From the NCBI RefSeq assembly GCF_988243305.1, contig NZ_OZ547136.1: a DNA stretch of 64,000 nt. One strand, written 5' to 3'. The notes below the pieces were generated by a model that did no database searches, was not told the origin of the DNA, and worked only from the letters and a program-made list of their open reading frames with translations. Each line of letters starts with the position of its first letter. The first letter of the stretch is position 1. Both the position numbers and the translations under genes were made by a program. Positions 1,361-62,634 of the stretch are shown here, one piece after another.

Positions 1361-1549
<189 letters not shown>

Positions 1550-11033: not shown

Positions 11034-11873
11034 TTAGCGCCCCCGAATACCATCAGCCAGACGTTTGCCGTTACGCACCGACAGCAGCGTCAGCAAAGTG
11101 CGCCAGGTCATGCGTTTATTGCGGATCTGGTAGAGGGTAAACAGCTGATATTTTTTGCTGGCACGGTCGAATTTGTCTTTGTGCTTGCGGTAAAAGTGGA
11201 AGTACCCGGAGAATTTTTTCGGTGACGAGGTGATCTGCATTTCACCGTGATTGATATGCAGGATCTGCGTCGCCTCTTCCACTTTCCACGGTTCGCCATA
11301 CTCCACCACCATCCGCAGGAAGATGTCGTAATCCTGTGCCGCTTTCAGTTCGGTATCAAACAAACACTCTTTGAAACGCCATGCCCAGGTAAAGACCTGA
11401 TTGCCAATGATATTGCGTTTGTAGAACAGGCGGCGTGAATACGGCGATTTGGGATACAGCGGTAAGCTTGCCGGTTGGGAATAGACTTCGCCCTGGCAAA
11501 CGTAATCGTTAGCGTACAAAAAGGCGTGAGTGACCAGTTGCTGTTTATGGGCGAGGAAGACGCTCAGACGGTTGGGGGTCCATTCATCATCATCATCGAT
11601 CCCGGTGATGTATTCCCCTTGCGCCAGCATAATAGCCTGGTTACGTACCGCGCACGCCCCGCTGTTAATGTCGTTGTGAATGTAGGTAATACGCGGATCG
11701 TTGAGGGCGGTGACGTACTGTTGCAGTTGTTCCCAGGAGGTGGAGCAATCATCCACGACGATCATCTCCCAGTTGTTGTAGTCCTGGCGCAGGACCGATT
11801 TTATCGCCCGAATCGCCAGTTGTTGGCGGTTCCAGGTCGGCATATAGATTGAGATCAGCGGATTGTCTTTCAT
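11034..11873 (-). CDS. wcaA: Colanic acid biosynthesis glycosyltransferase (GT2)
   Basis: 279-aa ORF with GT2 motif IVVDDCS. Confidence 0.9.
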   Translation of the reverse strand: MKDNPLISIYMPTWNRQQLAIRAIKSVLRQDYNNWEMIVVDDCSTSWEQLQQYVTALNDPRITYIHNDINSGACAVRNQAIMLAQGEYITGIDDDDEWTPNRLSVFLAHKQQLVTHAFLYANDYVCQGEVYSQPASLPLYPKSPYSRRLFYKRNIIGNQVFTWAWRFKECLFDTELKAAQDYDIFLRMVVEYGEPWKVEEATQILHINHGEMQITSSPKKFSGYFHFYRKHKDKFDRASKKYQLFTLYQIRNKRMTWRTLLTLLSVRNGKRLADGIRGR

Positions 11874-11908
11874 AGGTTGTTCTCCCGGCTTATGAGCTGG
11901 TTTGCTTG

Positions 11909-11942
11909 CCGGATGCGGCGTGAGCGCCTTATCCGGCCTACG
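11909..11942. repeat. REP palindromic element between wzc and wcaA
   Basis: gccggatgcggcgtgagcgccttatccggcctac, the canonical REP pattern. Confidence 0.7.
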
Positions 11943-11965
11943 GGGCGGTGCGAATGCAGGCGTCG

Positions 11966-14128
11966 TTATTTCGCATCCGACTTATATTCGTATTCGTAAT
12001 AGCCATAATCCTGATACGCGCTGGCGCGACGGAAGATGGAGTTCAGAATCACCCCTTTCACCGGAATACCGTTTTGCTCAAAGCGGCTCAGACTGGTTTC
12101 CACTTCTTTCAATGTGTTGACCGCATAACGCGCCACCATTAACGTGGTTCCGACATGACGACCAACAATTGCCGCATCGGTCACTGCCAGAATCGGCGGC
12201 GTATCAATCAACACCAGGTCATAGTTTTTACTCGCCCAGTTCACCAGTTCGGCAAAGCGTTCGCTCATCAACAGTTCAGAAGGATTTGGCGGTACCTGAC
12301 CGCGCGGGATCAGGTCAAATTTGGCAATAGAGGTCGGTTTAGCAGCGGTAGTAATATCGCCCTGACCAATCAAAATTTCCGACAGGCCATTGACGTTATT
12401 GGTGCCCAACAGCTCGTGGGTGTAGCCTTTGCGCATATCGCAGTCGATCAACAACACCCGTTTATTGGTCTGACTGATCACCGCCGCCAGGTTAGCGCAG
12501 ACAAAGGTTTTACCGATTGACGGGCTAACCCCGGTCATCATCAACACATTGTTCTGCGCCTGCATCATCGCGAAGTGCAGACTGGTACGCAGACTGCGGA
12601 TGGCTTCAATCGCCAGATCGGTTGGATTCCCCACCGCCAGTAGCTGGCTCTGTTTATAGCGTTTAACCCCTTTGATGGTTTTGACGCTATCGCGCGCTTT
12701 CTGCCATTCCGACAGCGGGATGCTGGCATAGACGCTAATACCGTGTTCTTCCAGCACCTGTGGGCTTTCGATGCCGCGATTGAACAACGAGCGCAGCAGC
12801 ACACCCACGATAGAGAGCATCAGGCCGAGGATAATCGCGCCGAGGATAATCAGCCCTTTCTTCGGTTTTAGCACGCCAGGCTGGGTGATTGCCGGGTCAA
12901 CAATGCGCACATCGCCGACGGTGCTGGCCTCGGTGATTTTCAGCTCCTGCTCTTTATTCAGCAGTTGCATATAGACCTGTTGACCAGACTCGACATCGCG
13001 GGTCAGACGGACAATTTCCTGCTGGGTTTTCGGCATCGCCGTTACGCGACCGTTAAGTTTGGCTTTTTCGTCTTCCAGCGCCTGCCGTTTCTCCAGCAGC
13101 GTGCGGTACGCCGGGTGAACTTTGGTGTACAGCTTGGAGATTTCCGCTTCTTTAAAGGTCAGTTCGTTCAACTGCGCGTCGATGTTCACCATCGAATCGA
13201 GCACCGCTTTCGCTTCCAGCGGCAGATCAACAGAATCTTTATCCTGACGGAAGGCATTCAGTTTGTTTTCGGCAACATCGAGGCGGCTACGTACTTCCGG
13301 TAACTGTTGCGCGAGGAAAGCGAGGCTTTTCGACGCTTCCGCCGATTTGCGCTCAATATTTTGTTCCTGATAGTTACGGGCGATGCTGTTAAGAATGTCG
13401 CGGATCTGTTCGCGATCTTCACCGGTATAAGTCAGGCTCAAAACGCCAGCATCTTTGCCGTTCTCCGTTACCGTCAGGCTGTTTTGCAGTTGGTTGATCA
13501 TCCCCAGCGTGGAGTATTTGGTGACGGTAAACTCACTGCCCGGGCTGGCGTGAATGGCTTCAACCATCAGCGTGACGCCTTCTTTTTTCAGCATCTGGCC
13601 CGCTTGCCCACGGGCGCTAAAGCCGCCATCACTGCTCAGGGTGTAGTTTTTGTCATCAAGCACATTAAGCGTAAACACCTGATCCGCCATCTCTTTCGGG
13701 CGGTTAAAGGTGGTCACTTTCACCGTCTCGTTCTGACGTCCCATCAGGCGATCCCAGCCCGCACCGAAAATCGGGAACGTGTTTTTGCTCACCGCAATAT
13801 CGAGGTCGAGATCGTCCACCGTTTTACCAAGCACCAGACGCGAACGAATCAACTGGATCTCGGCGTCCGATGCTGGCGGTTTGTTGGCTAATGCCGAACC
13901 AATGTCCTGCACTAACGAATTGCCGCTGTTTTGCTCGATTTGTACCAGTGCGTCGGCACTATAAATCGGCGTGGCGAAGAAGGTGTAAACCACGGCACAG
14001 AGGGCGAATACGGCAGTGATGCCAATTACCCACCAGCGCGCCTCAATGACGGTGCCAACCAGGCGACCAATATCGATTTCATCACTGCCCGTTACCGGAG
14101 CGGCATGTTGTTTTACTTTTTCTGTCAT
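11966..14128 (-). CDS. wzc: Tyrosine autokinase / polysaccharide co-polymerase
   Basis: Track ORF is 732 aa; trimmed to MTEKVKQHAAPVTG... (720 aa). Walker A-like motif and C-terminal Tyr-rich tail YQDYGYYEYEYKSDAK. Confidence 0.92.
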   Translation of the reverse strand: MTEKVKQHAAPVTGSDEIDIGRLVGTVIEARWWVIGITAVFALCAVVYTFFATPIYSADALVQIEQNSGNSLVQDIGSALANKPPASDAEIQLIRSRLVLGKTVDDLDLDIAVSKNTFPIFGAGWDRLMGRQNETVKVTTFNRPKEMADQVFTLNVLDDKNYTLSSDGGFSARGQAGQMLKKEGVTLMVEAIHASPGSEFTVTKYSTLGMINQLQNSLTVTENGKDAGVLSLTYTGEDREQIRDILNSIARNYQEQNIERKSAEASKSLAFLAQQLPEVRSRLDVAENKLNAFRQDKDSVDLPLEAKAVLDSMVNIDAQLNELTFKEAEISKLYTKVHPAYRTLLEKRQALEDEKAKLNGRVTAMPKTQQEIVRLTRDVESGQQVYMQLLNKEQELKITEASTVGDVRIVDPAITQPGVLKPKKGLIILGAIILGLMLSIVGVLLRSLFNRGIESPQVLEEHGISVYASIPLSEWQKARDSVKTIKGVKRYKQSQLLAVGNPTDLAIEAIRSLRTSLHFAMMQAQNNVLMMTGVSPSIGKTFVCANLAAVISQTNKRVLLIDCDMRKGYTHELLGTNNVNGLSEILIGQGDITTAAKPTSIAKFDLIPRGQVPPNPSELLMSERFAELVNWASKNYDLVLIDTPPILAVTDAAIVGRHVGTTLMVARYAVNTLKEVETSLSRFEQNGIPVKGVILNSIFRRASAYQDYGYYEYEYKSDAK

Positions 14129-15897: not shown

Positions 15898-15909
15898 CAC
15901 GCTACCGCC
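15898..15909 (-). promoter_or_regulatory. ops element (RfaH recruitment site) within the JUMPstart leader upstream of wza
   Basis: Minus strand reads GGCGGTAGCGTG (plus strand cacgctaccgcc), matching the ops consensus GGCGGTAGnnTG, about 180 nt upstream of the wza start. Confidence 0.8.
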
Positions 15910-16377
15910 CCTGGCTTTTTAGCTACCAATACACTGATTTAGCTTAATTTTTAAAACCCTCTCAACATACAGTCGTTGATGAGAAAGGGTTATTGCGGAA
16001 ATTAACTTCCGAATATAAGGTGACATTATGGTAATTGAATATTGGCTCTCCAATAATGCAGGAGGAAGTGTTACAGCTAACGGAATAGCAGGCAAGGTAA
16101 CAATTCGGCAATTGGCTATTTTTAAGAATTATATTAAGTGTCATTCAACATGGTTTTTAGGAGTTTCTTTAGGTTGACAATATTTAATATAGTGTCTCCA
16201 CATGCGATATTTCTTAAATAATGTTTTATTATTACCACTTTTAATTCAGGGATAATGTGAGGTTATAAACCTCAAATAATATGAGATAAATAGTGCTGCA
16301 ACATTGCATTTTTGCCCCGATTTATCCATGATCGAATTGTGACATTTGTCATACAACGAATAGGTTTTGTACTTACT

Positions 16378-30143: not shown

Positions 30144-30905
30144 TCATTCTGTCCACAGCGCCAGTGCCAACGTTTTATCATCATCCGTACGCTCGTTTAC
30201 CGCCGGGCTGGACAAAAACTGCTTTAACAATTCAGGTAATAAATCGAGTTGTTCCTGCGTTGCTGACGCCAGTCCATTGAAAAACGGGGTAAAAAAAGGC
30301 ACATGCGGAGAATTATTCAACATATTTAACGCCAGCCTCTGAATACCATCCGTAAATGCTGCAACTTTATGCGCACGCTCAGTACTGGTGTAAGTTTCCA
30401 GTCTGGAAACAGCATCGTCATCGGTAATGAAGTGCGTCATGTTGGCATATTCACCCACCATCGGCGTGAGAGGCAATTGCAGACCGTGACCCAAATCTAC
30501 CACCATGCCGCCATCGCCAATCTGCATAATCAAGGTGCCGTCAGGCGATGAAATCAGTCCCAGAAATGTACAGGCAAAATCGCGAACCGCTAATTCTTTG
30601 GCCTCTGCCTCGGCAAAAAGTCGCTGACGAATGGTCAGCACAATATCCGTGGCGAGGACATCATTAAGCCCCAATTCCCCACCCTGCACTTTTTGCGACA
30701 TATAAGCCATCGCTTCATTGACGGCGAGCATCGCGCCTTCGCCACCCTGCGAGACGCTGCCTGCGCCATCAGCGACAAATACCGACAATAATGGCTGCTG
30801 GTCATTTAACCAGGCAACCTGCATCTGGCAGGCATCCTGGCAAGGCAAGTCCGCGCTGATGTGCGACGTTCCAACGGTTGATGCATAGACCAGACGCCAG
30901 CTCAC
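30144..30905 (-). CDS. yegK: PP2C-family Ser/Thr protein phosphatase
   Basis: 253 aa with PP2C-like metal-binding motifs VADGAGS and FTDGIQ; start overlaps the yegL stop. Confidence 0.88.
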
Positions 30906-31561
30906 ACTGACGTCCAGCCTTTTGGCGCTTCCAGCACAACTTCCGTTCCCGGCGTGGAGCGGGAAACCGAACGCAGCGAACTGGATAACCAGCTAAACAG
31001 TTCACGGAATTGTAATCCCTGCAGTGGCAAAGGCTGACGAACGCTGATTTGTGCCAAAGTCTTCATATCCGCCCCCTGAACACCGATGGAAAAGAAGGCA
31101 AACTTCTTATCTTCTTCCCCCTGAAACACTTTGTTGGCGGCAGCCTGCCACTCATCGGTTGGAGCGCCATCGGTGATCAGGAAAATCCACGGGCGATAAT
31201 AGGAAATACCATTGGCGCGATACTCACGTTTGCGCTCCTCAACCATATCCAGGGCTTTGGTAATGGCGGCCCCCATTGGTGTATCGCCCTGGGCAAACAG
31301 GATGGGCGGGAAAAAATTAGCGGCGCTGGTAAAGGGTTGTTCCACATGCACCGGGCCGAACGTCACAATACCGAGTTCCACTCTTTTTAAGGCCAGCGGA
31401 TCGGCAAGCAGTTCATCGCGAAAGGTAACCAATCCGGCGTTAAGTTCATTAATAGGTCTACCACTCATCGAACCAGAAACATCCAACAGCAAAATGCAGG
31501 GGCAACGTGGTTCCGGGTTACTGGCAAAATCGCTGGTGGCAAACGTGATTTGTTCGCTCAT
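30902..31561 (-). CDS. yegL: von Willebrand factor type A (vWA) domain protein
   Basis: 219 aa with MIDAS motif DVSGSMSG (DxSxS) and downstream ITDGAPTD. Confidence 0.88.
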
Positions 31562-31742
31562 AAGAAATCCTTTCTTAGAGAATTATTGAGGTCCGGTATC
31601 ATACCGATTGCAATAATGAAATAAGAGCAAACGAAGAAACTTTCAGAATTAGGCCCGGCGGCGCAGAAAATTTTGCTATTCGCCTCGCAAGAACGGAGAG
31701 CCGTCGATTGACACTAAGGGCGGAGTGACATAATTTCAGGAG

Positions 31743-31878
31743 TGAGGGTTAGGGAGAGGTTTCTCCCTCCCCCTGGTGTTCTTAGTAAGCCTGGAAGCTA
31801 ATCACTAAGAGTATCTCCAGTATGATGACGTGCTTCATCATAACCCTTTCCTTATTAAAAGCCCTCTTCTCCGGGAGA
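31743..31878 (+). ncRNA. sibA: Sib antisense sRNA (antitoxin), copy 1
   Basis: Sigma70-like promoter ttgaca (31708-31713) and taattt (31731-31736); transcript fully covers the ibs ORF on the opposite strand; terminator hairpin gccctcttctccgggagagggttt. Ends approximate. Confidence 0.55.
31772..31831 (-). CDS. ibsA: Ibs type I toxin peptide, copy 1 (19 aa, variant)
   Basis: Minus-strand ORF MMKHVIILEILLVISFQAY with SD-like ggaaagg upstream; E and Q replace hydrophobic/Pro positions seen in the other two copies. Confidence 0.55.
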
Positions 31879-32077
31879 GGGTTTCCCGTTTCAGCGTCCC
31901 GCTGAAATCGTCGGCTTACCTCCTTTCGCCCTGAATGCAGTCTATCGCTAACGCGTGAACAAAATAGTTTCCTCTGTGATTATTGCGTAACGACTCGCAA
32001 AGAATATTTGCTGGCAGGATCGCAGACTGAAAAGCCTGCAGATTGACAATCTTATCGTGAAGGCATAATTTCAGGAG

Positions 32078-32215
32078 TGAGGGTAGAGCGGGGTTTCCCC
32101 CGCCCTGGTAGTCTTAGTAAGCCGGGAAGCTTATGACTAAGAGCACCACGATGATGATCCACTTCATCATGACCCTTTCCTTATTTAAGGCCCCTTCCTC
32201 GGGAGGGGCTTTCCC
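32078..32215 (+). ncRNA. Sib antisense sRNA (antitoxin), copy 2
   Basis: Promoter ttgaca (32043-32048) and taattt (32066-32071); terminator hairpin ccccttcctcgggaggggcttt. Ends approximate. Confidence 0.55.
32114..32170 (-). CDS. Ibs type I toxin peptide, copy 2 (18 aa)
   Basis: Minus-strand ORF MMKWIIIVVLLVISFPAY. Confidence 0.6.
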   Translation of the reverse strand: MMKWIIIVVLLVISFPAY

Positions 32216-32404
32216 GTTTCAGCGTCCCGCTGAAATCGTCGGCTTACCTCCTTTCGCCCTGAATGCAGTCTATCGCTAACGCGTGAACAAAATAGTTTCC
32301 TCTGTGATTATTGCGTAACGACTCGCAAAGAATATTTGCTGGCAGGATCGCAGACTGCAAAGCCTGCAGATTGACAATCTTATCGTGAAGGCATAATTTC
32401 AGGA

Positions 32405-32545
32405 GTGAGGGTAGAGCGGGGTTTCCCCCGCCCTGGTAGTCTTAGTATGCTGGGTAGCTAATCACTAAGAGCACCACGATGATGAGTAGCTTCATCATGA
32501 CCCTTTCCTTATTTATGGCCCCTTCCTCGGGAGGGGCTTTCCCGT
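32405..32545 (+). ncRNA. sibB: Sib antisense sRNA (antitoxin), copy 3
   Basis: Promoter ttgaca (32371-32376) and taattt (32394-32399); terminator hairpin ccccttcctcgggaggggcttt. Ends approximate. Confidence 0.55.
32442..32498 (-). CDS. ibsB: Ibs type I toxin peptide, copy 3 (18 aa)
   Basis: Minus-strand ORF MMKLLIIVVLLVISYPAY. Confidence 0.6.
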   Translation of the reverse strand: MMKLLIIVVLLVISYPAY

Positions 32546-32705
32546 TTCAGCGTCCCGCTGAAATCATCGGCTTACCTCCTTTCGCCATGCACGTAGTCTA
32601 TCGCTAACGCGTAGATAAAATAGTTTCATGTATTATTACTGGATGCGTGCTCGCAAATGTGCCCGCCATTCAGACGATTCCCGATAGTGTTTCATAATTC
32701 CTCCA

Positions 32706-32723
32706 TTTTTCTCCCTTATTGGC
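32706..32723 (+). promoter_or_regulatory. BaeR box upstream of mdtA
   Basis: tttttctcccttattggc matches the BaeR consensus TTTTTCTCCATDATTGGC at all but about two positions; about 55 nt upstream of the mdtA start. Confidence 0.7.
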
Positions 32724-32776
32724 TGGCTACACTAGTATCATTCCGCGAAACGTTTCAGGAAGAGAAACTCTTAACG

Positions 32777-34024
32777 ATGAAAGGCAGTTATAAATCCCGT
32801 TGGGTAATCGTAATCGTGGTGGTTATCGCCGCCATCGCCGCATTCTGGTTCTGGCAAGGCCGCAATGACTCCCGGAGTGCAGCCCCAGGGGCGACGAAAC
32901 AAGCGCAGCAATCGCCAGCGGGTGGTCGCCGTGGTATGCGTTCCGGCCCATTAGCCCCGGTTCAGGCGGCGACCGCCGTAGAACAGGCAGTTCCGCGTTA
33001 CCTCACCGGGCTTGGCACCATTACCGCCGCTAATACTGTTACGGTGCGCAGCCGCGTGGACGGTCAACTGATGGCGTTACATTTCCAGGAAGGCCAGCAG
33101 GTCAAAGCAGGCGATTTACTGGCAGAAATTGACCCAAGCCAGTTCAAAGTTGCATTAGCACAAGCCCAGGGCCAACTGGCAAAAGATAAAGCCACGCTTG
33201 CCAACGCCCGCCGTGACCTGGCGCGTTATCAGCAACTGGCAAAAACCAATCTCGTATCTCGTCAGGAACTGGATGCCCAACAAGCGCTGGTCAGTGAAAC
33301 CGAAGGCACCATTAAGGCTGATGAAGCAAGCGTCGCCAGCGCGCAGCTGCAACTCGACTGGAGCCGCATCACCGCACCAGTCGATGGTCGCGTTGGTCTC
33401 AAGCAGGTTGATGTTGGTAACCAAATCTCCAGTGGTGATACCACCGGGATTGTGGTGATCACCCAGACGCATCCTATCGATTTGCTCTTTACCCTGCCGG
33501 AAAGCGATATCGCTACCGTAGTACAGGCGCAAAAAGCCGGAAAACCGCTGGTTGTTGAAGCCTGGGATCGCACCAACTCGAAGAAATTAAGTGAAGGCAC
33601 GCTGTTAAGTCTCGATAACCAAATCGATGCCACTACCGGTACGATTAAAGTGAAAGCACGCTTTAATAATCAGGATGATGCGCTGTTTCCCAATCAGTTT
33701 GTTAACGCGCGTATGTTAGTCGACACCGAACAAAACGCCGTGGTGATCCCCACCGCCGCTCTGCAAATGGGCAACGAAGGCCATTTTGTCTGGGTGCTGA
33801 ATAGCGAAAACAAGGTCAGCAAACATCTGGTGACGCCGGGCATTCAGGACAGTCAGAAAGTGGTGATCCGCGCAGGTATTTCTGCGGGCGACCGCGTAGT
33901 GACGGATGGCATTGATCGCCTGACCGAAGGGGCGAAAGTGGAAGTGGTGGAAGCCCAGAGCGCCACCACTTCGGAAGAGAAAGCCACCAGCCGCGAATAC
34001 GCGAAAAAAGGAGCACGCTCCTGA
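32777..34024 (+). CDS. mdtA: Multidrug efflux RND membrane fusion (periplasmic adaptor) protein
   Basis: Track ORF is 455 aa; trimmed to [16 protein letters not shown]... (415 aa). Confidence 0.92.
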
Positions 34025-43938: not shown

Positions 43939-44271
43939 ATGGCTGGTTGGTTTGAACTCAGTAAGAGCAGTGATAATCAGTTCCGGTTTGTGCTAAAAGC
44001 GGGCAATGGTGAGACTATCCTCACCAGCGAGCTATATACCTCAAAAGCCTCTGCGGAAAAGGGTATCGCGTCGGTGCGTAGCAACAGCCCGCAAGAAGAA
44101 CGCTATGAGAAAAAAACGGCAAGCAACGGCAAATTCTATTTCAATCTGAAAGCCGCCAATCATCAAATTATCGGCTCCAGCCAGATGTACGCCACCGCGC
44201 AATCTCGTGAAACCGGAATTGCCTCCGTTAAAGCCAATGGCACAAGCCAGACGGTGAAAGACAATACGTAA
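43939..44271 (+). CDS. yegP: UPF0339/DUF1508 family protein
   Basis: Track ORF is 123 aa; trimmed to MAGWFELSKSSDNQFRF... (110 aa) with SD aaggag 6 nt upstream. The protein is an internal duplication (two SxxxAxxxIASVxxN halves). Confidence 0.85.
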   Translation: MAGWFELSKSSDNQFRFVLKAGNGETILTSELYTSKASAEKGIASVRSNSPQEERYEKKTASNGKFYFNLKAANHQIIGSSQMYATAQSRETGIASVKANGTSQTVKDNT

Positions 44272-44418
44272 TTACGATGCCGGGCGTGGGTTGTTGGCGT
44301 CCGGCGCTTTACCAGCTCCCCCCTACAGCGCTACAATGCCCGCCCTTAAAGTGGGGGCACTCCCCTGGCCGCTTCATCAGGTGAAGCGGATCTGACCTGT
44401 CATCAGAACGAGAGAATT

Positions 44419-45780
44419 ATGTTTAAACCGGAACTCCTTTCCCCGGCGGGAACGCTGAAAAATATGCGTTACGCTTTCGCTTATGGCGCAGATGCTGTTT
44501 ATGCGGGCCAGCCGCGTTACTCCCTGCGTGTGCGCAACAACGAATTTAACCACGAAAATCTTCAGCTCGGCATCAATGAAGCCCACGCGCTGGGGAAAAA
44601 GTTTTATGTCGTGGTCAACATTGCACCGCACAACGCCAAGCTGAAAACCTTTATCCGTGACCTGAAACCGGTGGTGGAAATGGGGCCGGATGCGCTGATT
44701 ATGTCCGATCCGGGGCTGATTATGCTGGTGCGCGAGCACTTCCCTGAAATGCCGATCCATCTCTCAGTACAGGCTAACGCCGTGAACTGGGCGACGGTGA
44801 AATTCTGGCAGCAAATGGGTCTGACCCGCGTGATCCTCTCTCGCGAACTGTCACTGGAAGAGATTGAAGAGATCCGCAATCAGGTGCCAGATATGGAGAT
44901 CGAAATCTTCGTTCACGGCGCGCTGTGCATGGCCTACTCCGGTCGCTGCCTGCTCTCTGGCTATATCAACAAGCGCGACCCGAACCAGGGCACCTGCACC
45001 AACGCCTGCCGCTGGGAGTACAACGTCCAGGAAGGGAAAGAAGATGACGTTGGCAACATCGTGCACAAGTACGAGCCGATTCCGGTGCAAAATGTTGAGC
45101 CGACGCTGGGTATCGGCGCACCAACTGACAAAGTGTTTATGATCGAAGAAGCCCAGCGTCCGGGCGAGTATATGACCGCGTTTGAAGATGAGCACGGCAC
45201 TTACATCATGAACTCGAAAGATCTGCGCGCTATCGCCCACGTTGAACGCCTGACCAAAATGGGCGTGCATTCGCTGAAAATCGAAGGCCGTACTAAATCT
45301 TTCTACTATTGCGCACGCACCGCACAGGTTTACCGTAAAGCTATCGATGACGCCGCTGCGGGCAAACCGTTCGATACCAGCCTGCTGGAAACTCTGGAAG
45401 GTCTGGCGCATCGTGGCTATACCGAAGGTTTCCTGCGTCGTCATACTCACGACGATTATCAGAACTACGAATACGGTTATTCAGTTTCTGACCGCCAGCA
45501 GTTTGTTGGTGAGTTTACCGGTGAGCGCAAGGGCGACCTCGCGGCGGTAGCGGTGAAAAATAAATTCTCCGTTGGCGACAGCCTTGAGCTGATGACGCCG
45601 CAAGGGAACATTAACTTTACCCTTGAGCAGATGGAAAACGCCAAAGGCGAAGCAATGCCGGTCGCACCGGGCGATGGTTATACTGTGTGGATCCCGGTCC
45701 CGCAGGATCTTGAGCTAAATTACGCGCTGCTGATGCGTAATTTCTCCGGGGAAACCACGCGTAACCCACACGGTAAGTGA
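44419..45780 (+). CDS. yegQ: U32-family peptidase-like protein (tRNA hydroxylation, TrhP)
   Basis: 453-aa ORF MFKPELLSPAGTLKNMRYAFAYGADAVYAGQPRYSLR... with conserved Cys cluster. Confidence 0.9.
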   Translation: MFKPELLSPAGTLKNMRYAFAYGADAVYAGQPRYSLRVRNNEFNHENLQLGINEAHALGKKFYVVVNIAPHNAKLKTFIRDLKPVVEMGPDALIMSDPGLIMLVREHFPEMPIHLSVQANAVNWATVKFWQQMGLTRVILSRELSLEEIEEIRNQVPDMEIEIFVHGALCMAYSGRCLLSGYINKRDPNQGTCTNACRWEYNVQEGKEDDVGNIVHKYEPIPVQNVEPTLGIGAPTDKVFMIEEAQRPGEYMTAFEDEHGTYIMNSKDLRAIAHVERLTKMGVHSLKIEGRTKSFYYCARTAQVYRKAIDDAAAGKPFDTSLLETLEGLAHRGYTEGFLRRHTHDDYQNYEYGYSVSDRQQFVGEFTGERKGDLAAVAVKNKFSVGDSLELMTPQGNINFTLEQMENAKGEAMPVAPGDGYTVWIPVPQDLELNYALLMRNFSGETTRNPHGK

Positions 45781-45812
45781 TTAATTTCGATTATTTTTCC
45801 CGGATGGAAAAT

Positions 45813-45834
45813 TCTTAGAAACCGATCACATACA
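45813..45834 (+). promoter_or_regulatory. Candidate CRP site (class II position) for cyaR
   Basis: tcttagaaaccgatcacataca with a perfect TCACA right half, centred about 41.5 nt upstream of the inferred CyaR 5' end. Confidence 0.45.
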
Positions 45835-45864
45835 GCTGCATTTATTAAGGTTATCATCCGTTTC

Positions 45865-45951
45865 GCTGAAAAACATAACCCATAAAATGCTAGCTGTACC
45901 AGGAACCACCTCCTTAGCCTGTGTAATCTCCCTTACACGGGCTTATTTTTT
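45865..45951 (+). ncRNA. cyaR: CyaR (RyeE) Hfq-dependent sRNA
   Basis: gctgaaaaacataacccataaaatgctagctgtaccaggaaccacctccttagcctgtgtaatctcccttacacgggcttatttttt matches my recollection of CyaR, including the terminal hairpin and U-tract. Confidence 0.85.
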
Positions 45952-46109
45952 ATGCATAGGCCCTATCCCTGGTCACCGTCTTCCATTGACCACATCGATA
46001 GAATCTCCCTTCATAGCACGATGCCTTTCACGTAACGGCATCGTGCTCGCACTAGTTCCGGCTAAGCACAACCAGAACGCGCATGTTTGACGCTTACCAA
46101 AAAATATTC

Positions 46110-46427
46110 TCACTCTCCACATTTGAATGTCAGACGAGCGACGCCATGTAATCCTGCACCTTCTGTCTTCAGGTCAACTATCTGCATTTTTTTGCCCTGA
46201 GTAACACAGAAATGAGCTGCATCATTTTTTACTATATTTTCTGCACCAGATATTCTGCCCCTGGCTAAAGAAGCTTCGGCTTCGGTGTAGTATTGGTTAT
46301 CGAGTTTACGCTGAATATTACTTTTATATGCAAGACCAAATTTACCGATACTTGTCTCATCATTATGTACAGCACACCCAGACATAAGAAAAACACTAAT
46401 TAATGATATAGCAGCTATCTTTTTCAT
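46110..46427 (-). CDS. yegR: Small lipoprotein of unknown function
   Basis: Track ORF is 125 aa; trimmed to MKKIAAISLISVFLMSGCAVHND... (105 aa) with signal peptide and lipobox LMSGC. Confidence 0.85.
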   Translation of the reverse strand: MKKIAAISLISVFLMSGCAVHNDETSIGKFGLAYKSNIQRKLDNQYYTEAEASLARGRISGAENIVKNDAAHFCVTQGKKMQIVDLKTEGAGLHGVARLTFKCGE

Positions 46428-46841
46428 CTTACCTTCCCCCATTAAATACCAACGACACGCTCTGGTGTTAAAATATAATAATGGCATGATTATTATAATT
46501 GAATAGGATTATAATAAATGTTCTGTACAACATTTCCTACATAAGTAGGAATTACAAACATGAAGCCCTGCCCAGGTATCCCCATGAGGGCTTTAATATA
46601 TTTAGAATAAGATAGTGAAGATGCCACTGTTTAGTTGAATATTAGGTATATGCTCTTTTTTGAAATTTACCGGTGGCTACCGTTAACATTCACTGTCCCC
46701 ATTGCAAGCTCCTGGTGGTAACCACTGAATCCTCCATACTTGAACTGACTTTTTATCCTCCGACTTTCATCCTGTTCTGACTCCACCTTTTCTTTTCTGC
46801 TCTACACTATCTACAGACCAATCATAAAGGCACATACGATC

Positions 46842-47741
46842 ATGGCAGAATTTCCCGCCAGCTTACTGATTCTTAATGGCAAAAGTACTGACAATTTACC
46901 ATTGCGCGAAGCAATTATGCTGTTGCGTGAGGAAGGAATGACGATCCATGTGCGGGTCACCTGGGAGAAAGGCGATGCCGCACGATATGTAGAGGAGGCC
47001 CGGAAGTTGGGCGTCGCAACGGTGATTGCCGGTGGTGGCGATGGCACCATTAATGAAGTTTCTACGGCGTTGATTCAGTGTGAGGGGGATGACATACCCG
47101 CGCTGGGAATTTTGCCATTAGGAACCGCCAATGATTTTGCCACCAGTGTAGGGATTCCTGAGGCACTGGATAAGGCGCTGAAACTGGCAATTGCCGGTAA
47201 CGCCATTGCGATAGATATGGCGCAGGTCAACAAACAAACCTGTTTTATTAATATGGCGACAGGCGGGTTTGGGACGCGTATTACCACAGAAACGCCGGAA
47301 AAATTAAAAGCCGCGCTGGGTGGCGTCTCTTACATCATTCATGGCTTAATGCGCATGGACACTCTGCAACCGGACCGTTGTGAGATCCGCGGTGAAAACT
47401 TTCACTGGCAAGGTGACGCCCTGGTCATTGGTATTGGTAACGGGCGTCAGGCCGGTGGCGGTCAACAATTGTGCCCGAACGCGTTAATTAACGATGGCTT
47501 GCTGCAACTGCGCATTTTTACCGGCGATGAAATTCTTCCGGCTCTCGTATCAACCTTAAAATCTGACGAAGATAACCCGAATATTATCGAAGGCGCTTCG
47601 TCGTGGTTTGATATACAAGCCCCACACGAAATCACTTTTAATCTTGATGGCGAACCGTTGAGCGGACAAAACTTTCATATTGAAATACTTCCGGCGGCGT
47701 TGCGTTGTCGATTACCACCGGATTGTCCATTATTGCGTTAA
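46842..47741 (+). CDS. yegS: Lipid kinase, diacylglycerol-kinase catalytic domain family
   Basis: 299-aa [35 protein letters not shown]... with GGDGT motif. Confidence 0.92.
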
Positions 47742-47768
47742 TCAAACTATTCTCTCTTGAACCAGGGA

Positions 47769-47815
47769 GAAACAGTTATGCCGGATGCGGTATAAACACC
47801 TTATCCGGCCTACTG
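47769..47815. repeat. REP palindromic element between yegS and gatR
   Basis: atgccggatgcggtataaacaccttatccggcctactg. Confidence 0.7.
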
Positions 47816-47822
47816 AACAATA

Positions 47823-48602
47823 CTACACCGTAATTAATTTCACCCGTGTCTTCTGCAATGCCAGTTTATCCACCTCTGACACGGCATCATCGGTAATAAT
47901 AATGTCGATTTTTTCGATTGGCAGTACCTGATTAAAACCGCGACGATTAAATTTCGATGAATCGAGAACGGCAATCACTTTATTTGCGGCTGTGACCATC
48001 GCCCCGCTAATCGAATAACCTTCATTAAAGGTCGTAATACCATTAACCGCATCAATACCATCAGCACCGACAAACATTAAATCGGCATTAATATCCTGCA
48101 ATGAACGCTCGGCAATGGAACCATGCATCGAGCGTGTTTTATGGCGGACGGTCCCACCACAGACGACCAGAGTAATGTCTTTATTTTCGGAAAGGGCAAA
48201 CGCCGCCGGGAGACTGTTGGTAATCACCGTGATATTTTTGGCGGTCATTAAACCTTCGGCGATAAGCATTGTGGTACTTCCGCTGTCGAGAATAACGGTC
48301 ATCCCTTCGTGGATCATTTTGACTGCCGCCTGCGCTATTCTGTTTTTTGGCGCACTGGCGAGCTGAAATCGCTCTTTAAACCCAACTTCCTGGGTCTCGG
48401 TTTCACTATTACCGGACATTATTTTCGCCGCACCGCCATGAAAGCGCGTAACTACGCCTTTTTGTTCGAGAAAGCGCAAATCGGCACGGATTGTCGCTTC
48501 CGAGGCAGCAAATACTCCCGCCAGATCCTGAACAAGCACGGTTCCCTGTTCATTCACTAATTGGATGATCTTATTCCTTCGCTCGAATGAATTCATCGTC
48601 AT
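47823..48602 (-). CDS. gatR: DeoR-family transcriptional repressor of the galactitol operon (intact)
   Basis: 259-aa uninterrupted ORF; N-terminal HTH and C-terminal DeoR sugar-binding domain; immediately downstream of gatD. Confidence 0.88.
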   Translation of the reverse strand: MTMNSFERRNKIIQLVNEQGTVLVQDLAGVFAASEATIRADLRFLEQKGVVTRFHGGAAKIMSGNSETETQEVGFKERFQLASAPKNRIAQAAVKMIHEGMTVILDSGSTTMLIAEGLMTAKNITVITNSLPAAFALSENKDITLVVCGGTVRHKTRSMHGSIAERSLQDINADLMFVGADGIDAVNGITTFNEGYSISGAMVTAANKVIAVLDSSKFNRRGFNQVLPIEKIDIIITDDAVSEVDKLALQKTRVKLITV

Positions 48603-48701
48603 TTACCCATATTCAATTGTGGCTAGTGTAAACGAAGGGGGACCATTGGTGAATGATCTGTTTTGCACAATACCGGGCCAGCATCACGCTGGCCCGCGGT
48701 T

Positions 48702-49742
48702 TCAGGGAATGAGCAACACTTTGCCCGGCATAGCATTACGAGCGATGTCACGCACCGCCTGGGCGAAGCTTTCAAAGCTTCCACGGTGAGCGATTAATGG
48801 CTCCAGGCTTAACTTACGTTCTGTCAGCAACCGGCTCGCCGTTTCCCACTCCTGCCCCGGCCAAGGGCTGGAGTAGTTCATCCAGCTGCCGATAACCGTC
48901 AGCTCTTTACGCAATATTTTGCCAAACGTTGCCGATGTTAAATGCAGATCCTGATGCAACGTGCCCACCAGCGCCAGCTGGGCATGAGGCCCGGCAATCT
49001 CTACCGCCAGTTCGACGGTTTGCGGGACGCCAGCCGTCTCGAGGATAAGCTGATTAAAGCGCAGTTCGCGTAAAACGCTCTGCATTTGCGGCGCGCTCAT
49101 TTCGCTACTGTTAAATGTTTGCATCGCACCGAAAGATTTTGCCAGTGCCAGTTTTTCTGAGCTAATGTCGATAGCCGTCACACTCTTTGCTCCCAGCGCG
49201 ACAGCGCACTGAATTGCCAGCAGGCCAATGGTTCCGGCACCAATAATAATAACGTTTTTATTCTCACAACCTTGCGCTAAATGAAAAGCATGCAGGCCAA
49301 CGGTAATCGGTTCAATAAAAGCCCCATCCTCAATAGGCATATCCGTGGGTAGAGCAAAGACATTTTTTCGCTTAACGACAATATATTCAGCAAATCCACC
49401 ATCACGCCGCGAGCCAATAAAATCATATTTTGCGCACTGGGAATAAAACCCTTTCAAACACTCTGGACAAGTAAAACAGGGTAATAACGGCACACAGGCA
49501 ACCGCATCGCCAGGGTGTAAATCATCAACACCGGATCCCACCGCATCAATATAGCCGCTAAATTCATGGCCTAACGTTATTGGATAATAATGTGCACCAT
49601 TTTTAAATATCCTGGGTAAATCGGAACCACATAAGCCCGAGCTGGTAATTTTTACCCGTACCTCATCCTGATGTTTAATTTCAGGAATGACGCTTTCTGC
49701 AACGCGCACGATACCATCAGTATCATTCACCACTGATTTCAT
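48702..49742 (-). CDS. gatD: Galactitol-1-phosphate 5-dehydrogenase (Zn-dependent)
   Basis: 346-aa ORF with Zn-ADH motifs GHEFSG and CGSD-type Cys ligands. Confidence 0.95.
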   Translation of the reverse strand: MKSVVNDTDGIVRVAESVIPEIKHQDEVRVKITSSGLCGSDLPRIFKNGAHYYPITLGHEFSGYIDAVGSGVDDLHPGDAVACVPLLPCFTCPECLKGFYSQCAKYDFIGSRRDGGFAEYIVVKRKNVFALPTDMPIEDGAFIEPITVGLHAFHLAQGCENKNVIIIGAGTIGLLAIQCAVALGAKSVTAIDISSEKLALAKSFGAMQTFNSSEMSAPQMQSVLRELRFNQLILETAGVPQTVELAVEIAGPHAQLALVGTLHQDLHLTSATFGKILRKELTVIGSWMNYSSPWPGQEWETASRLLTERKLSLEPLIAHRGSFESFAQAVRDIARNAMPGKVLLIP

Positions 49743-49789
49743 AAAAACTCCTGATTGTTAAGGGGGATTACCTCCCCCTCAGGTAAAAA

Positions 49790-51145
49790 TTATTCTGCGA
49801 GAACGGCTTTCTCTTGTTTAATAAAACCACGCGCTCTACGCCAGGTCATGAAAATACCGGTCAGATAAATTGCGCCGATAATAATGAAACCGGGAATATT
49901 TTGCGGGGAGAAAACCTGAATCAGTAACCAGGTAATGGGAGAACCGCCCTGATCCATTGAAGCCACCATACCCCCGGCTTTTAACGCCCCAGCATTAGCC
50001 GCCAGTTGGGTGTGCAAACCAATAGTTTGCGTCGCGATCCACAGGGTGATGCTCATAATGATGACACCCGAGATTAAGGTGCGGAACAGATTTCCACGAT
50101 GCACGGCAACTGCCATCGCCACAAAGAAGCCGATAGTTGCAAGATCGCCAAACGGCAGCACCTGATTACCCGGCACACAAACAGCAATTAAAATGGTGAG
50201 CGGGATAAAAATCAGGCTTGCCGATACCACCGCCGTATGCCCCAGCAGCAACGCCGGATCAAGGCCAATCAGGAACTCCTGACCGCCGAACTTCGCCTGT
50301 AAACGACTACGGGCCTGCTTAGCGATGGGCGTTAAACCATCCATGATGGGTTTAATCACCCGTGGCATCAGCAGCATCACCGCCGCCGTTTTTACCGCCA
50401 GCTGCAATACACCTTTGACATCGTAACCCGCGAGGATGCCGATAATCAGCCCCATCACAAAACCCACGGTGACAGGCTCGCCAAACGGACCAAATTTGCG
50501 CTGAATATCGTCGGCGCTAAATTTAATACGGTTAACGCCTGGGATTTTCTCGATGATAGCATCCACCAGCACCGCAATTGGCCCCAGATACGCCGACGTA
50601 CCGTGCGGAATAGCAATGCCTTCCAGCTCAAAGAAATTTCGGGTATCGCGGGCAAACCAGTCGCCGAGCTTATAAACAAACGCCGCGTGAATTACCACAC
50701 CCGCCATCCCTATCATCCATGAACCGGTTGCCAGATGCAGCAACGCGCCGGTGAAGGTCATATGCCAGATATTCCAGATATCAACATTTACCACCCGCGT
50801 CATACGGGTCAGTAGCATCGCCACGTTAACCAGAATCGCAATCGGAATCGCCACCAGCGCAATTTGCGACGCCCAGGTCATTGGTGAAGAGCCCGGCCAA
50901 CCGACATCGACCACATGCAGATTCAGGTCGAAATTTTCCGCCATCGCTTTCGCCGCCGGGCCAATGGAATCCAGCATTAAGCCAATCACAAGGCCAATGC
51001 CAACAAAGCCAATCCCGATATGCAGACCTGCTTTAAAGCAATCGCCTGCCTTCATGCCTAATATTTTAGAAAAAATAATGATGACAATCGGTAGCATCAC
51101 CGTAGGGCCGAGGTCGAGAATATAACGCATGACTTCTGAAAACAT
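49790..51145 (-). CDS. gatC: PTS galactitol-specific EIIC permease
   Basis: 451-aa polytopic membrane ORF. Confidence 0.95.
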   Translation of the reverse strand: MFSEVMRYILDLGPTVMLPIVIIIFSKILGMKAGDCFKAGLHIGIGFVGIGLVIGLMLDSIGPAAKAMAENFDLNLHVVDVGWPGSSPMTWASQIALVAIPIAILVNVAMLLTRMTRVVNVDIWNIWHMTFTGALLHLATGSWMIGMAGVVIHAAFVYKLGDWFARDTRNFFELEGIAIPHGTSAYLGPIAVLVDAIIEKIPGVNRIKFSADDIQRKFGPFGEPVTVGFVMGLIIGILAGYDVKGVLQLAVKTAAVMLLMPRVIKPIMDGLTPIAKQARSRLQAKFGGQEFLIGLDPALLLGHTAVVSASLIFIPLTILIAVCVPGNQVLPFGDLATIGFFVAMAVAVHRGNLFRTLISGVIIMSITLWIATQTIGLHTQLAANAGALKAGGMVASMDQGGSPITWLLIQVFSPQNIPGFIIIGAIYLTGIFMTWRRARGFIKQEKAVLAE

Positions 51146-51148
51146 AGG

Positions 51149-51433
51149 TCACCCCTGTAAGATAGTCAGAATTTTATTTTGTAATGCTTCGATACCGACA
51201 CCAGAAACAAAAGGCATGCCGTGAACTAACGGAATATCGCCAAAACTACGGTCAACTTTGGCGGTAGTACATATCAAATGCACGCCATCCATATAGGTTT
51301 CTATTTCATTAACCCGACACTGGATTAATTCAACAGGAATATTATGACTCTGACACAACTCTTTAATTTCTTCCGCCGCCATCGTAGAGGTCGCAACCGC
51401 GCCTCCGCAAGCGACAATAATCTTGCGTTTCAT
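51149..51433 (-). CDS. gatB: PTS galactitol-specific EIIB
   Basis: 94-aa [25 protein letters not shown]... with active-site Cys. Confidence 0.95.
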
Positions 51434-51463
51434 AAATAGTCCTTTTTATTGTTACAGAGGGAT

Positions 51464-51916
51464 TTATTCGTCTGAATCTAAAACATACTTTGTGAAGTAT
51501 TCCTTTAACTGGGTTTCAGGAAGAGTGATTAGTGTCTCGACGATATCGGGCTGTTGTAACTTGCCAAATAAACAGCGTAAAAGTTTCAATTGCTGCTGCG
51601 GATTTTCCACAATCAACGCAATAACCAACGATACCGCCACGTCATTATCATCATCCGCTTGCTGAAAATGAACTTTATTTGTTGGCCTTAACAGATAAAT
51701 GGCTGACGACTTAGCATGAATCGCCTCACAATGCGGTATTGCGATGGCGTGCTGCTCAAGCATTATCCCGGTAGGGAATTCTGCTTCTCTGGCAATTAAT
51801 GCCTGTGGCCAGGTATCATGAACCACACCTTTCGCGAGCATCTCATTACCGATATGGGTTAAAACTTCGCTACGATCGGCAAAAGAAATTCCGCTACGAA
51901 CAAACAGGTTAGTCAT
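51464..51916 (-). CDS. gatA: PTS galactitol-specific EIIA
   Basis: 150-aa ORF. Confidence 0.95.
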   Translation of the reverse strand: MTNLFVRSGISFADRSEVLTHIGNEMLAKGVVHDTWPQALIAREAEFPTGIMLEQHAIAIPHCEAIHAKSSAIYLLRPTNKVHFQQADDDNDVAVSLVIALIVENPQQQLKLLRCLFGKLQQPDIVETLITLPETQLKEYFTKYVLDSDE

Positions 51917-51925
51917 ATACCATCC

Positions 51926-54125
<2,200 letters not shown>

Positions 54126-54301
54126 TTAAATGTCGAGATAACGATCACAAAAACGACAATATGAAAATTGTTCGAGGAGTGAAAGGCAAAAAAAACGGCC
54201 TCCCGATAGGGAAGCCGTAGCAAAGTGCGCGTGTTTTTATGCCGGATGCGACGTAAACGCCTTTTCCGTCATACGTGGTAGTGCTGTTCGTATAAGGCGT
54301 A

Positions 54302-55354: not shown

Positions 55355-55610
55355 TACTATGCTCCCGTAAATTCCGATTGGATATCGGCTATGGATTGTC
55401 CTGGCCCGCCTTTTGCGGGCAATCATAATCCTGGTCGTTACAGGCGAGTTTTTCCATCTTTTGGATGTTTTTTCAGCGTTTTCTGTTGGCTCGATTCATC
55501 AGAAAAAATGTTACCGCGGTCAAGTTTTCACCGCAAAGGTATTTAAAAGGTATTATTAAATGGTATTGTCATCGCGTACCTTACATTACCTGTCATGAAG
55601 GAATTAAAAG

Positions 55611-59571: not shown

Positions 59572-59622
59572 TTGTCTTTTTCCAGGCGATGAGTCTGGAG
59601 GAAGTATATCACTGCTGGTTAT

Positions 59623-60450: not shown

Positions 60451-60505
60451 CCCTGAATGTCAGCGCCAAAGACTGACAATAACCAAAGCAGCTATAGTAA
60501 GGTGC

Positions 60506-62091: not shown

Positions 62092-62094
62092 AGT

Positions 62095-62225
62095 TTGCTC
62101 CTGCCATAACGTGAAGAAGCAATGACCTGGTGGTCCGTGACTTCCCTACGCTGGCATTATCCAGATCAGGTGATACGGGTATTTCTCAGCCTTCACGCAG
62201 AAGGGCACCCCGAGTCGTTTGATTG
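62095..62225 (-). promoter_or_regulatory. TPP (thi-box) riboswitch in the thiM leader
   Basis: Minus strand reads ...ACGACUCGGGGUGCCCUUCUGCGUGAAGGCUGAGAAAUACCCGUAUCACCUGAUCUGGAUAAUGCCAGCGUAGGGAAGUCACGGACCACCAGGUCAUUGC..., containing the conserved CUGAGA and ACCUGAUCUGGAUAAUGCCAGCG thi-box elements. Confidence 0.9.
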
Positions 62226-62313
62226 CGATGATAAATCGCAGAGGAGGATGGTAATGTCCAGCGCACGCGTTGTAAACGAGGAAAAACGGCAGTTTTACAA
62301 TAGCGTTAATAAA

Positions 62314-62586: not shown

Positions 62587-62634
62587 GGCAACACCTGGTT
62601 AATAAGAATATGAAAAATCATAGCACTATTAATC

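What the first reader, a model, noticed from the sequence alone, without database searches (positions are those of the whole stretch)
31772..31831. First Ibs copy carries charged and polar substitutions in the hydrophobic core
Copy 1 (MMKHVIILEILLVISFQAY) has Glu at position 9 and Gln at position 17, where copies 2 and 3 have Val and Pro. A charged residue in the middle of a membrane-inserting toxin is expected to weaken it, so this copy may be a decaying or detoxified toxin whose antitoxin sRNA promoter is still intact.
Basis: partly seen in the sequence, partly recalled or inferred. Interest (0 to 1): 0.4.

Follow-up and report, generated by a model that had tools for sequence, protein, structure and literature searches.

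The report
Rare Glu9 allele of IbsA toxin
This is the well-known E. coli ibsA/sibA small-toxin and antisense-RNA pair, carrying a rare natural one-base variant that puts a charged residue into the toxin's hydrophobic core; the variant probably weakens the toxin, but the locus is otherwise intact and the second 'odd' residue (Gln17) is simply the normal IbsA residue.

Summary
The peptide MMKHVIILEILLVISFQAY is real, but it lies on the minus strand at 31782-31841, 10 nt from the stated coordinates. It is ibsA, the first of three ibs/sib type I toxin-antitoxin units between yegL and mdtA (Rfam SIB_RNA 146 bits; Pfam Ibs_toxin 46.9 bits).

- **Gln17** is not a substitution. It is the K-12 IbsA residue, and Gln occurs at that position in 5 of 32 natural 19-aa Ibs peptides.
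- **Glu9** is unusual. It is a single GTG>GAG change found in 15 of about 4,490 complete E. coli records (14 strains). The K-12 60-mer is identical in 4,310 records.
- None of 41 distinct natural Ibs peptides from five genera has an acidic residue anywhere, or any charged residue after position 4.
- Glu9 always travels with a second SNP 52 nt away (31764). Neither intermediate haplotype exists, so the allele is shared by descent, not recurrent.
- The rest of the 399-nt unit (both promoter regions, Shine-Dalgarno, start, stop, SibA) is identical to common Val9 strains.

Verdict: a known system carrying a rare, probably attenuating missense polymorphism, not a decaying gene. Loss of toxicity is inferred, not shown. 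Low interest.

The parts
31782..31841 (-). ibsA ORF, Glu9 allele (MMKHVIILEILLVISFQAY, stop included)
   Evidence: Translation. Pfam PF13956 scores 46.9 bits against a cutoff of 27. Identical to RefSeq WP_072146903.1, annotated 'ibsA' in 15 E. coli records.
31815..31817 (-). Codon 9, GAG (Glu). The SNP is at 31816 (+ strand T; A in Val9 strains)
   Evidence: K-12 has GTG. Variable-site table.
31791..31793 (-). Codon 17, CAG (Gln), the wild-type IbsA residue
   Evidence: Same codon in K-12 JM109. Gln occurs at position 17 in 5 of 32 natural 19-aa Ibs peptides.
31844..31853 (-). ibsA Shine-Dalgarno, AAGGAAAGGG
   Evidence: Read. Identical in K-12 and other Val9 strains, with no variable site.
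31708..31856 (+). SibA antitoxin RNA with its promoter (-35 TTGACA at 31708-31713), fully antisense to ibsA. The RNA probably runs on to the hairpin at about 31862-31885
   Evidence: Rfam RF00113 scores 145.9 bits, E=1.2e-31, over the full model 1-147. The 3' end is inferred.
31764..31764 (.). Second SNP of the Glu9 haplotype (+ strand T; C in all Val9 references). It lies in the SibA 5' hairpin and the ibsA 3' UTR, 18 nt past the stop
   Evidence: Present in all 15 Glu9 records. No intermediate haplotypes exist.
31862..31881 (.). GC-rich hairpin between the units, the presumed SibA terminator stem
   Evidence: Terminator-like hit and folded hairpin. The functional assignment is inferred.
32043..32185 (+). 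Sib unit 2, with ibs ORF 32114-32170 (-) encoding MMKWIIIVVLLVISFPAY
32371..32513 (+). Sib unit 3, with ibs ORF 32442-32498 (-) encoding MMKLLIIVVLLVISYPAY
30902..31561 (-). yegL (vWA-domain protein), left flank of the array
   Evidence: ORF. Annotation of homologous loci.
32777..34024 (+). mdtA, right flank of the array
   Evidence: ORF. Annotation.

Best explanation
The feature is the canonical chromosomal ibsA/sibA type I toxin-antitoxin unit of E. coli. SibA (+ strand) is an antisense RNA of about 140 nt that overlaps the whole ibsA message (- strand). By analogy with SibC/ibsC, it pairs with the message and triggers its degradation, so the 19-aa membrane peptide IbsA is not made. This window carries a rare natural allele, V9E, on a two-SNP haplotype (31816 and 31764). 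The Glu sits in the middle of the otherwise uninterrupted aliphatic segment V5-I14. It is predicted to make membrane partitioning costly and so to attenuate the toxin, partly or fully. Everything else needed to express both RNAs is unchanged. The locus is therefore best read as a segregating, probably hypomorphic allele that is tolerated because the toxin is dispensable and normally repressed. It is not a gene in progressive decay. Shown: identity of the locus, rarity of the allele, linkage, uniqueness of an acidic core residue, intact cis elements. Inferred: reduced toxicity.
For: Locus identity comes from Rfam SIB_RNA at 145.9 bits, Pfam Ibs_toxin at 46.9 bits, and yegL-mdtA synteny with RefSeq ibsA annotation. 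Gln17 is wild type. The K-12 ibsA 60-mer is 100% identical in 4,310 of 4,490 records, while the Glu9 60-mer is found in 15. All 15 carry the second SNP, and no T/A or C/T intermediate exists. The copy-1 unit differs from common Val9 haplotypes at those two sites only. Among 41 natural Ibs peptides from Escherichia, Citrobacter, Kluyvera, Pseudocitrobacter and Salmonella there is no Asp or Glu, no charged residue from position 5 on, and position 9 is V29/I2/A1. Glu9 lowers GRAVY from 1.98 to 1.58, below the catalogue minimum of 1.65, and cuts the longest apolar run from 10 to 5. From the literature: the hydrophobic centre of IbsC determines toxicity (PMC9860968), and residues 6-19 and at least 10 hydrophobic residues are needed (PMC8309996, both citing Mok 2010).
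Against: No experiment on V9E was found, and the primary mutagenesis paper (Mok 2010) was not available. Ibs toxins are reported to tolerate extensive mutation (PMC7192591). An alanine scan of Salmonella IbsA found only His3 and Leu11 essential (bioRxiv 10.1101/2025.05.26.656083), although Ala is not a charged substitution. Salmonella arizonae and diarizonae peptides carry Gln13 or Gly10+Pro13 in the core, so the core is not absolutely inviolate. A lone Glu can be protonated in the bilayer, which sharply reduces the insertion penalty (general membrane biophysics, not tested here). Even K-12 IbsA shows no lethality when sibA is deleted (Han 2010, PMC2943612), so the baseline toxicity of IbsA in vivo is itself uncertain.
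Confidence: 0.6

Rival explanations
1. Functionally neutral polymorphism. IbsA-E9 still inserts, with Glu protonated or snorkelling, and is about as toxic as wild type. The allele is ordinary drift in a mutation-tolerant peptide.
For: IbsC tolerates extensive mutation (PMC7192591). Only 2 of 19 positions are Ala-sensitive in Salmonella IbsA (bioRxiv 10.1101/2025.05.26.656083). On a 100-degree helical wheel, Glu9 lies 120-160 degrees from Lys3 and Leu11, the face implicated there (own calculation). The Pfam score drops by only 3.5 bits. The allele persists in 14 strains with diverse mdtABC haplotypes.
Against: There is no acidic residue in 41 natural Ibs peptides, and position 9 is restricted to V, I or A. 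The ibsA sequence is otherwise nearly invariant, with 96% of records identical, which implies constraint. The hydrophobic centre is described as the toxicity determinant (PMC9860968).
Confidence: 0.22
2. An RNA-level effect is what matters. The two linked SNPs change SibA and/or ibsA mRNA structure, stability or cross-talk with other Sib RNAs, and the amino-acid change is a by-product.
For: The SNPs are never found apart. The codon-9 SNP breaks a U-A pair of the CUGGUG/CACCAG stem in both strands. Predicted MFE changes from -55.3 to -51.6 kcal/mol in the SibA sense and from -60.1 to -52.1 kcal/mol in the ibsA sense. Both SNPs create the same pentamer, TCTCC on the + strand and GGAGA in the mRNA. 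The ibsA mRNA is reported to be recognised by non-cognate Sib RNAs (PMC2943612).
Against: Because the antisense RNA is cis-encoded, perfect complementarity is kept automatically. By homology mapping, both SNPs fall outside the SibC target-recognition domains TRD1 (+46..+68) and TRD2 (+99..+115), at about +27 and +79 (inference from PMC2943612). The folds are predictions with assumed RNA ends. The two sites do not pair with each other. The Rfam score of this SibA is the highest of the three copies.
Confidence: 0.1
3. Progressive pseudogenisation.
For: There is a non-conservative core substitution plus one extra SNP within 52 nt in a unit that is usually invariant.
Against: No other lesion exists. 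The ORF, start, stop, Shine-Dalgarno, upstream region and SibA are identical to Val9 strains. The 15 Glu9 records and the window show no additional changes in the 31738-31860 core.
Confidence: 0.04
4. Altered or gained function. The mid-membrane carboxylate drives self-association or a new interaction, for example with the proton path of F-type ATP synthase.
For: Salmonella IbsA is reported to bind Fo subunits a and b and block proton translocation (bioRxiv 10.1101/2025.05.26.656083). Polar residues in single transmembrane helices are known to promote oligomerisation (general knowledge, not tested). The haplotype occurs on at least two different flank backgrounds.
Against: There is no direct evidence. 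The allele is rare, at 0.3% of records, and confined to one haplotype. No other family member has evolved an acidic core residue.
Confidence: 0.04

Closest known systems
IbsA/SibA (QUAD1a/RyeC) of E. coli K-12, yegL-mdtA intergenic region
   Same: It has the same locus, synteny, antisense architecture and 60-nt ORF, with 59 of 60 nt and 18 of 19 aa identical, including Gln17. The SibA promoter region and the ibsA Shine-Dalgarno are identical.
   Different: It carries V9E and a C>T change in the SibA 5' hairpin. The array has three units here against two in K-12.
RefSeq WP_072146903.1 ('type I toxin-antitoxin system Ibs family toxin', gene ibsA) in 14 E. coli strains, e.g. KE55, NRZ14408, MS 69-1, O7:H15 ST70
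   Same: The peptide and the two-SNP haplotype are identical. KE55 also has the same copy-2 and copy-3 peptides.
   Different: The flanks differ: yegL at 14 of 660 sites and pphC at 48 of 762 sites. These strains also carry a private SNP at 31592 that the window lacks.
IbsC/SibC, the experimentally characterised family member
   Same: It is a 19-aa hydrophobic peptide repressed by a fully overlapping antisense RNA, and its hydrophobic centre is required for toxicity (PMC2943612, PMC8309996, PMC9860968).
   Different: It is at a different locus with a different sequence (MMRLVIILIVLLLISFSAY), and it has Ile rather than Glu at position 9. No data were found on a charged residue at that position.
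Salmonella IbsA (19 aa), reported to inhibit FoF1 ATP synthase
   Same: It belongs to the same family and has the same length. A basic residue at position 3 and Leu11 are conserved here as Lys3 and Leu11.
   Different: It is at a different locus (yqiK-rfaE). Only an alanine scan is available, with no acidic substitution tested.

Membership tests
Pfam PF13956 Ibs_toxin | Profile score at or above the gathering cutoff of 27 bits | tested here: met
   Glu9 allele 46.9 bits, K-12 allele 50.4, copy 2 41.4, copy 3 38.3. One or two residues from the upstream in-frame codons were prepended to reach the tool's 20-aa minimum, and the alignments cover profile positions 1-19.
Rfam RF00113 SIB_RNA (antitoxin) | Covariance-model score at or above 56 bits, on the strand opposite the ORF and spanning it | tested here: met
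   145.9 bits at 31708-31856 (+), covering the ORF at 31782-31841 (-) and its Shine-Dalgarno.
ibsA/sibA orthologue (E. coli) | Position between yegL and mdtA as the yegL-proximal 19-aa unit, with near-identity to K-12 ibsA | tested here: met
   59 of 60 nt match, RefSeq loci with the same peptide are named ibsA, and the 399-nt unit is 99.5% identical to many Val9 strains.
Ibs toxins | Uninterrupted, uncharged hydrophobic core (positions 5-14) | tested here: not met
   the longest apolar run is 5, against 10-11 in 39 of 41 natural peptides. Glu9 is the only acidic residue seen in the family sample. This does not remove it from the family by homology, but it departs from the family's functional hallmark.
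Type I toxin-antitoxin system | The peptide is toxic on overexpression and repressed by the cognate antisense RNA | not testable with these tools
   This needs expression experiments. Literature exists for IbsC and for Ibs proteins generally (PMC2943612), not for this allele.

The most novel reading that the evidence does not exclude
The Glu9 haplotype may not be a broken toxin. It could be a functionally distinct IbsA whose buried carboxylate changes oligomerisation or its reported interaction with the Fo proton channel. Alternatively, its two always-linked SNPs could retune SibA/ibsA RNA structure. Either could explain why the haplotype has been kept intact and moved between different E. coli backgrounds.
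Probability: 0.07. Interest if true: 0.5.

Novelty: already known. Interest (0 to 1): 0.18.

Why it matters
The finding matters little beyond the family. The locus is the textbook ibsA/sibA module, and the allele is already in RefSeq, though unstudied. Its modest value is as a ready-made natural test of what a 19-aa type I toxin needs. A single charged residue in the core, on an otherwise unchanged expression cassette, could show whether Ibs toxicity is plain hydrophobic membrane damage or a specific interaction. The analysis also shows how strongly ibsA/sibA is conserved: 96% of complete E. coli genomes that carry ibsA share an identical 60-mer, while the flanking genes differ by 2-6%.

Tried and rejected
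- **Recurrent mutation in the window's lineage:** rejected. A second SNP at 31764 is shared exclusively with all Glu9 strains, and no intermediates exist.
- **Gene conversion from the neighbouring copies 2 or 3:** rejected from the sequence, because neither has T at the equivalent positions. The sibC/D/E loci were not examined.
- **Sequencing error:** rejected, because the allele is in 14 independently sequenced strains.
- **Window from another Escherichia species:** rejected. It is 91-94% identical to the E. albertii, E. whittamii and other species loci and about 98% identical to E. coli.
- **'Deep divergent lineage':** rejected for this locus. There are only 19 private sites in 12.5 kb, so it is a mosaic.
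- **Primary papers:** Mok 2010 and Fozo 2008 are not held, so only secondary descriptions were used.
- **Metagenome scan with the core codons left free:** it returned only 6 hits, all wild type, which is uninformative on allele spectrum.
- **Literature search for either peptide string:** no papers found.
- **NCBIfam:** no Ibs model hit for any copy.

Full report
**1. What is at the site**

Reading both strands shows that the stated span, 31772-31831, translates to nonsense with stops. Two further small ORFs lie at 32114-32170 (MMKWIIIVVLLVISFPAY) and 32442-32498 (MMKLLIIVVLLVISYPAY).

On the opposite strand, Rfam finds three full-length SIB_RNA matches at 31708-31856, 32043-32185 and 32371-32513. 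They score 145.9, 141.6 and 143.1 bits against a gathering score of 56. All three peptides pass Pfam PF13956 Ibs_toxin, at 46.9, 41.4 and 38.3 bits against a cutoff of 27 (one or two upstream-codon residues were prepended to reach the tool's 20-aa minimum). The array sits between yegL (30902-31561, -) and mdtA (32777-34024, +). This is exactly the ibsA/ibsB locus of E. coli, and RefSeq annotates the homologous ORFs as ibsA plus Ibs-family toxins. The feature is therefore a real and well-known type I toxin-antitoxin array.

**2. The two 'substitutions'**

K-12 (JM109) IbsA is MMKHVIILVILLVISFQAY. Gln17 is thus the wild-type IbsA residue. It differs from copies 2 and 3 only because those are IbsB-like paralogues.

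To widen the comparison, I scanned one genome per species (45 loci) and added the E. coli loci, giving 41 distinct natural Ibs peptides:

| Position (19-aa forms) | Residues seen |
|---|---|
| 9 | V 29, I 2, A 1 |
| 17 | P 17, Q 5, A 4, H 3, S 2, N 1 |

Gln17 carries no signal of decay. Glu9 is different. It arises from a single T>A change in codon 9 (GTG>GAG; + strand 31816). No peptide in the catalogue has Asp or Glu anywhere, and none has any charged residue from position 5 to the C-terminus.

**3. How common is Glu9**

In 5,426 complete E. coli genomes, the K-12 ibsA 60-mer is 100% identical in 4,310 of the 4,490 matching records. The window's 60-mer is found exactly in 15 records. These represent 14 strains, because NRZ14408 was assembled twice. 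RefSeq holds this peptide as WP_072146903.1. About 940 genomes gave no megablast match to the 60-mer and were not analysed. A metagenome scan with the core codons left free returned only six hits, all Val9. No paper in the library contains either peptide string.

**4. One origin or several**

All Glu9 strains fetched share identical PphC, YegI and YegD proteins. Their YegL is also identical, except for one strain (TUM1226) with a different YegL accession. They therefore form one haplotype block on that side, while the mdtABC side varies.

The window's flanks are not close to that clade. It differs at 14 of 660 sites in yegL and 48 of 762 in pphC, against 5 and 17 for the Val9 strain O169:H41. 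That first suggested an independent origin. The variable-site table ruled this out. The window and every Glu9 strain share a second derived base at 31764 (+ strand C>T), 52 nt from the codon-9 SNP, and all eight Val9 references lack it.

Direct inspection confirms both SNPs in all 15 records. Queries built for the two intermediate haplotypes found no exact match among about 4,490 records. Glu9 is therefore a single two-SNP haplotype shared by descent or by recombination.

The window as a whole is about 98.0% identical to the best complete genomes in all three thirds. Yet it has only 19 private sites in 12.5 kb against 16 references. It also shares extra alleles with subsets of the Glu9 strains in mdtA/mdtB. 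That is the pattern of a recombinational mosaic, not a deep lineage. It is not another Escherichia species, since identity to those is 91-94%.

**5. Is the unit decaying**

No. The 399-nt copy-1 unit (31562-31960) is 99.7% identical to six Glu9 strains and 99.5% identical to hundreds of Val9 strains. Against ABU 83972 or O157:H7 TR01, the only differences are the two haplotype SNPs. The following are all unchanged:

- the SibA promoter region (no variable site between 31660 and 31756),
- the Shine-Dalgarno AAGGAAAGGG,
- the tandem ATG start and the stop,
- the region upstream of ibsA.

This SibA also has the highest Rfam score of the three copies.

**6. Likely consequence of Glu9**

*Protein level.* Glu9 lowers Kyte-Doolittle GRAVY from 1.98 to 1.58, below the minimum of 1.65 among natural family members. 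It also splits the 10-residue apolar run into runs of 4 and 5.

Secondary accounts of the IbsC mutagenesis by Mok et al. 2010 state that the highly hydrophobic centre determines toxicity (PMC9860968). They also state that residues 6-19 and at least 10 hydrophobic residues are required (PMC8309996). I could not read the primary paper.

By established hydrophobicity scales (from my own knowledge, not computed here), an ionised Glu in the bilayer centre costs several kcal/mol, and far less if protonated. I therefore consider attenuation the most likely outcome, at about 60%, but it is an inference.

There is counter-evidence. IbsC is said to tolerate extensive mutation (PMC7192591). An alanine scan of Salmonella IbsA found only His3 and Leu11 essential (bioRxiv 10.1101/2025.05.26.656083). 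On a helical wheel, Glu9 lies 120-160 degrees from Lys3 and Leu11 (own calculation). Two Salmonella subspecies carry Gln13 or Gly10+Pro13 in the core. Even wild-type K-12 ibsA is not lethal when sibA is removed, which has been attributed to cross-repression by other Sib RNAs (PMC2943612).

*RNA level.* The codon-9 SNP converts a U-A pair of the CUGGUG/CACCAG stem into a mismatch in both transcripts. This stem extends the conserved CUGG/CCAG helix of the Rfam model. The 31764 SNP changes a G-C pair to G-U in the SibA 5' hairpin. Predicted stabilities:

| Transcript | Wild type (kcal/mol) | Variant (kcal/mol) |
|---|---|---|
| SibA sense | -55.3 | -51.6 |
| ibsA sense | -60.1 | -52.1 |

Mapped by homology onto SibC numbering, the SNPs fall at about +27 and +79. 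That is outside TRD1 (+46..+68) and TRD2 (+99..+115) (PMC2943612; the mapping is my inference). Because the antisense is cis-encoded, complementarity is preserved in any case.

Both SNPs create the same pentamer, TCTCC on the + strand and GGAGA in the mRNA. I have no explanation for this (note).

**7. Comparison with the known, and verdict**

The locus works like, and is, ibsA/sibA. The tested family criteria are met (Pfam, Rfam, synteny, near-identity). The exception is the family's functional hallmark of an uncharged hydrophobic core, which the Glu9 allele fails. Toxicity and repression cannot be tested here.

The system is already known, and the allele already exists in RefSeq without study. 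Interest is low. The most novel reading not excluded is an allele with altered function or retuned RNA, which I put at about 7%.

Noticed in passing
window 31762-31766 and 31814-31818: The two linked SNPs of the Glu9 haplotype each create the same pentamer: TCTCC on the + strand, which is the Shine-Dalgarno-like GGAGA in the ibsA-sense RNA. The wild-type sequences are TCCCC and TCACC. The SNPs are never found apart in about 4,490 E. coli records.
   Followed up: partly
window 31782-31841 versus the E. coli genome collection: Nucleotide conservation of ibsA is extreme. The K-12 60-mer is identical in 4,310 of 4,490 records, while the adjacent yegL and pphC differ by 2-10% between the same lineages. 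This fits dual-strand constraint, with a peptide plus two structured RNAs.
   Followed up: partly
L012, L013, L014, L076 versus window 31560-32780: The number of ibs/sib units between yegL and mdtA varies among strains. There are 2 in K-12 JM109, ABU 83972 and GMF065, 3 in the window and most strains, and 4 in REL606. The IbsB-like copies differ mainly at position 4 (L/I/W) and position 15 (F/Y/W/L).
   Followed up: partly
L017 and L018, positions 6001-6060: There is another rare ibsA allele, ATGAGG (M2R, MRKHVIILVILLVISFQAY, WP_071528451.1), in O157:H16 Res13-Lact-PEA12-26 and O128ac:H12 AW1.7. It removes the second of the tandem Met codons.
   Followed up: no
L036 and L054 (Salmonella enterica subsp. 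arizonae and diarizonae): Ibs peptides here carry polar or helix-breaking residues inside the core: MMQQVIILIVLLQISFPAY has Gln13, and MMQQVIILIGLLPISFAAY has Gly10 and Pro13. The core is therefore not strictly aliphatic in every natural member.
   Followed up: no
window 1-64000: The window is uniformly about 98.0% identical to the best of 5,426 complete E. coli genomes. Yet it has few private sites against only 16 references at the ibs locus. It is a fine-scale mosaic of alleles seen in different lineages, and the source strain was not identified.
   Followed up: partly
window 63931-64000: The last 70 bases do not align to E. coli chromosomes at this locus. Meanwhile, 888 plasmid records match some part of 44001-64000 at 99% or more. 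This is probably the edge of an insertion sequence or other mobile element, which was not identified.
   Followed up: partly
window 45863-45948 (+), 62126-62222 (-), 15898-15936 (-), 1275-1324 (-), 1411-1481 (+): Other Rfam matches are CyaR/RyeE sRNA, a TPP riboswitch, the JUMPstart element upstream of the colanic-acid genes, algC RNA and naRNA4. All are ordinary E. coli features.
   Followed up: no
L003, positions 11134-11990: alkA is annotated as frameshifted in the Glu9 strain WP4-S18-ESBL-07 but is intact in the other Glu9 strains. It is unrelated to the finding.
   Followed up: no
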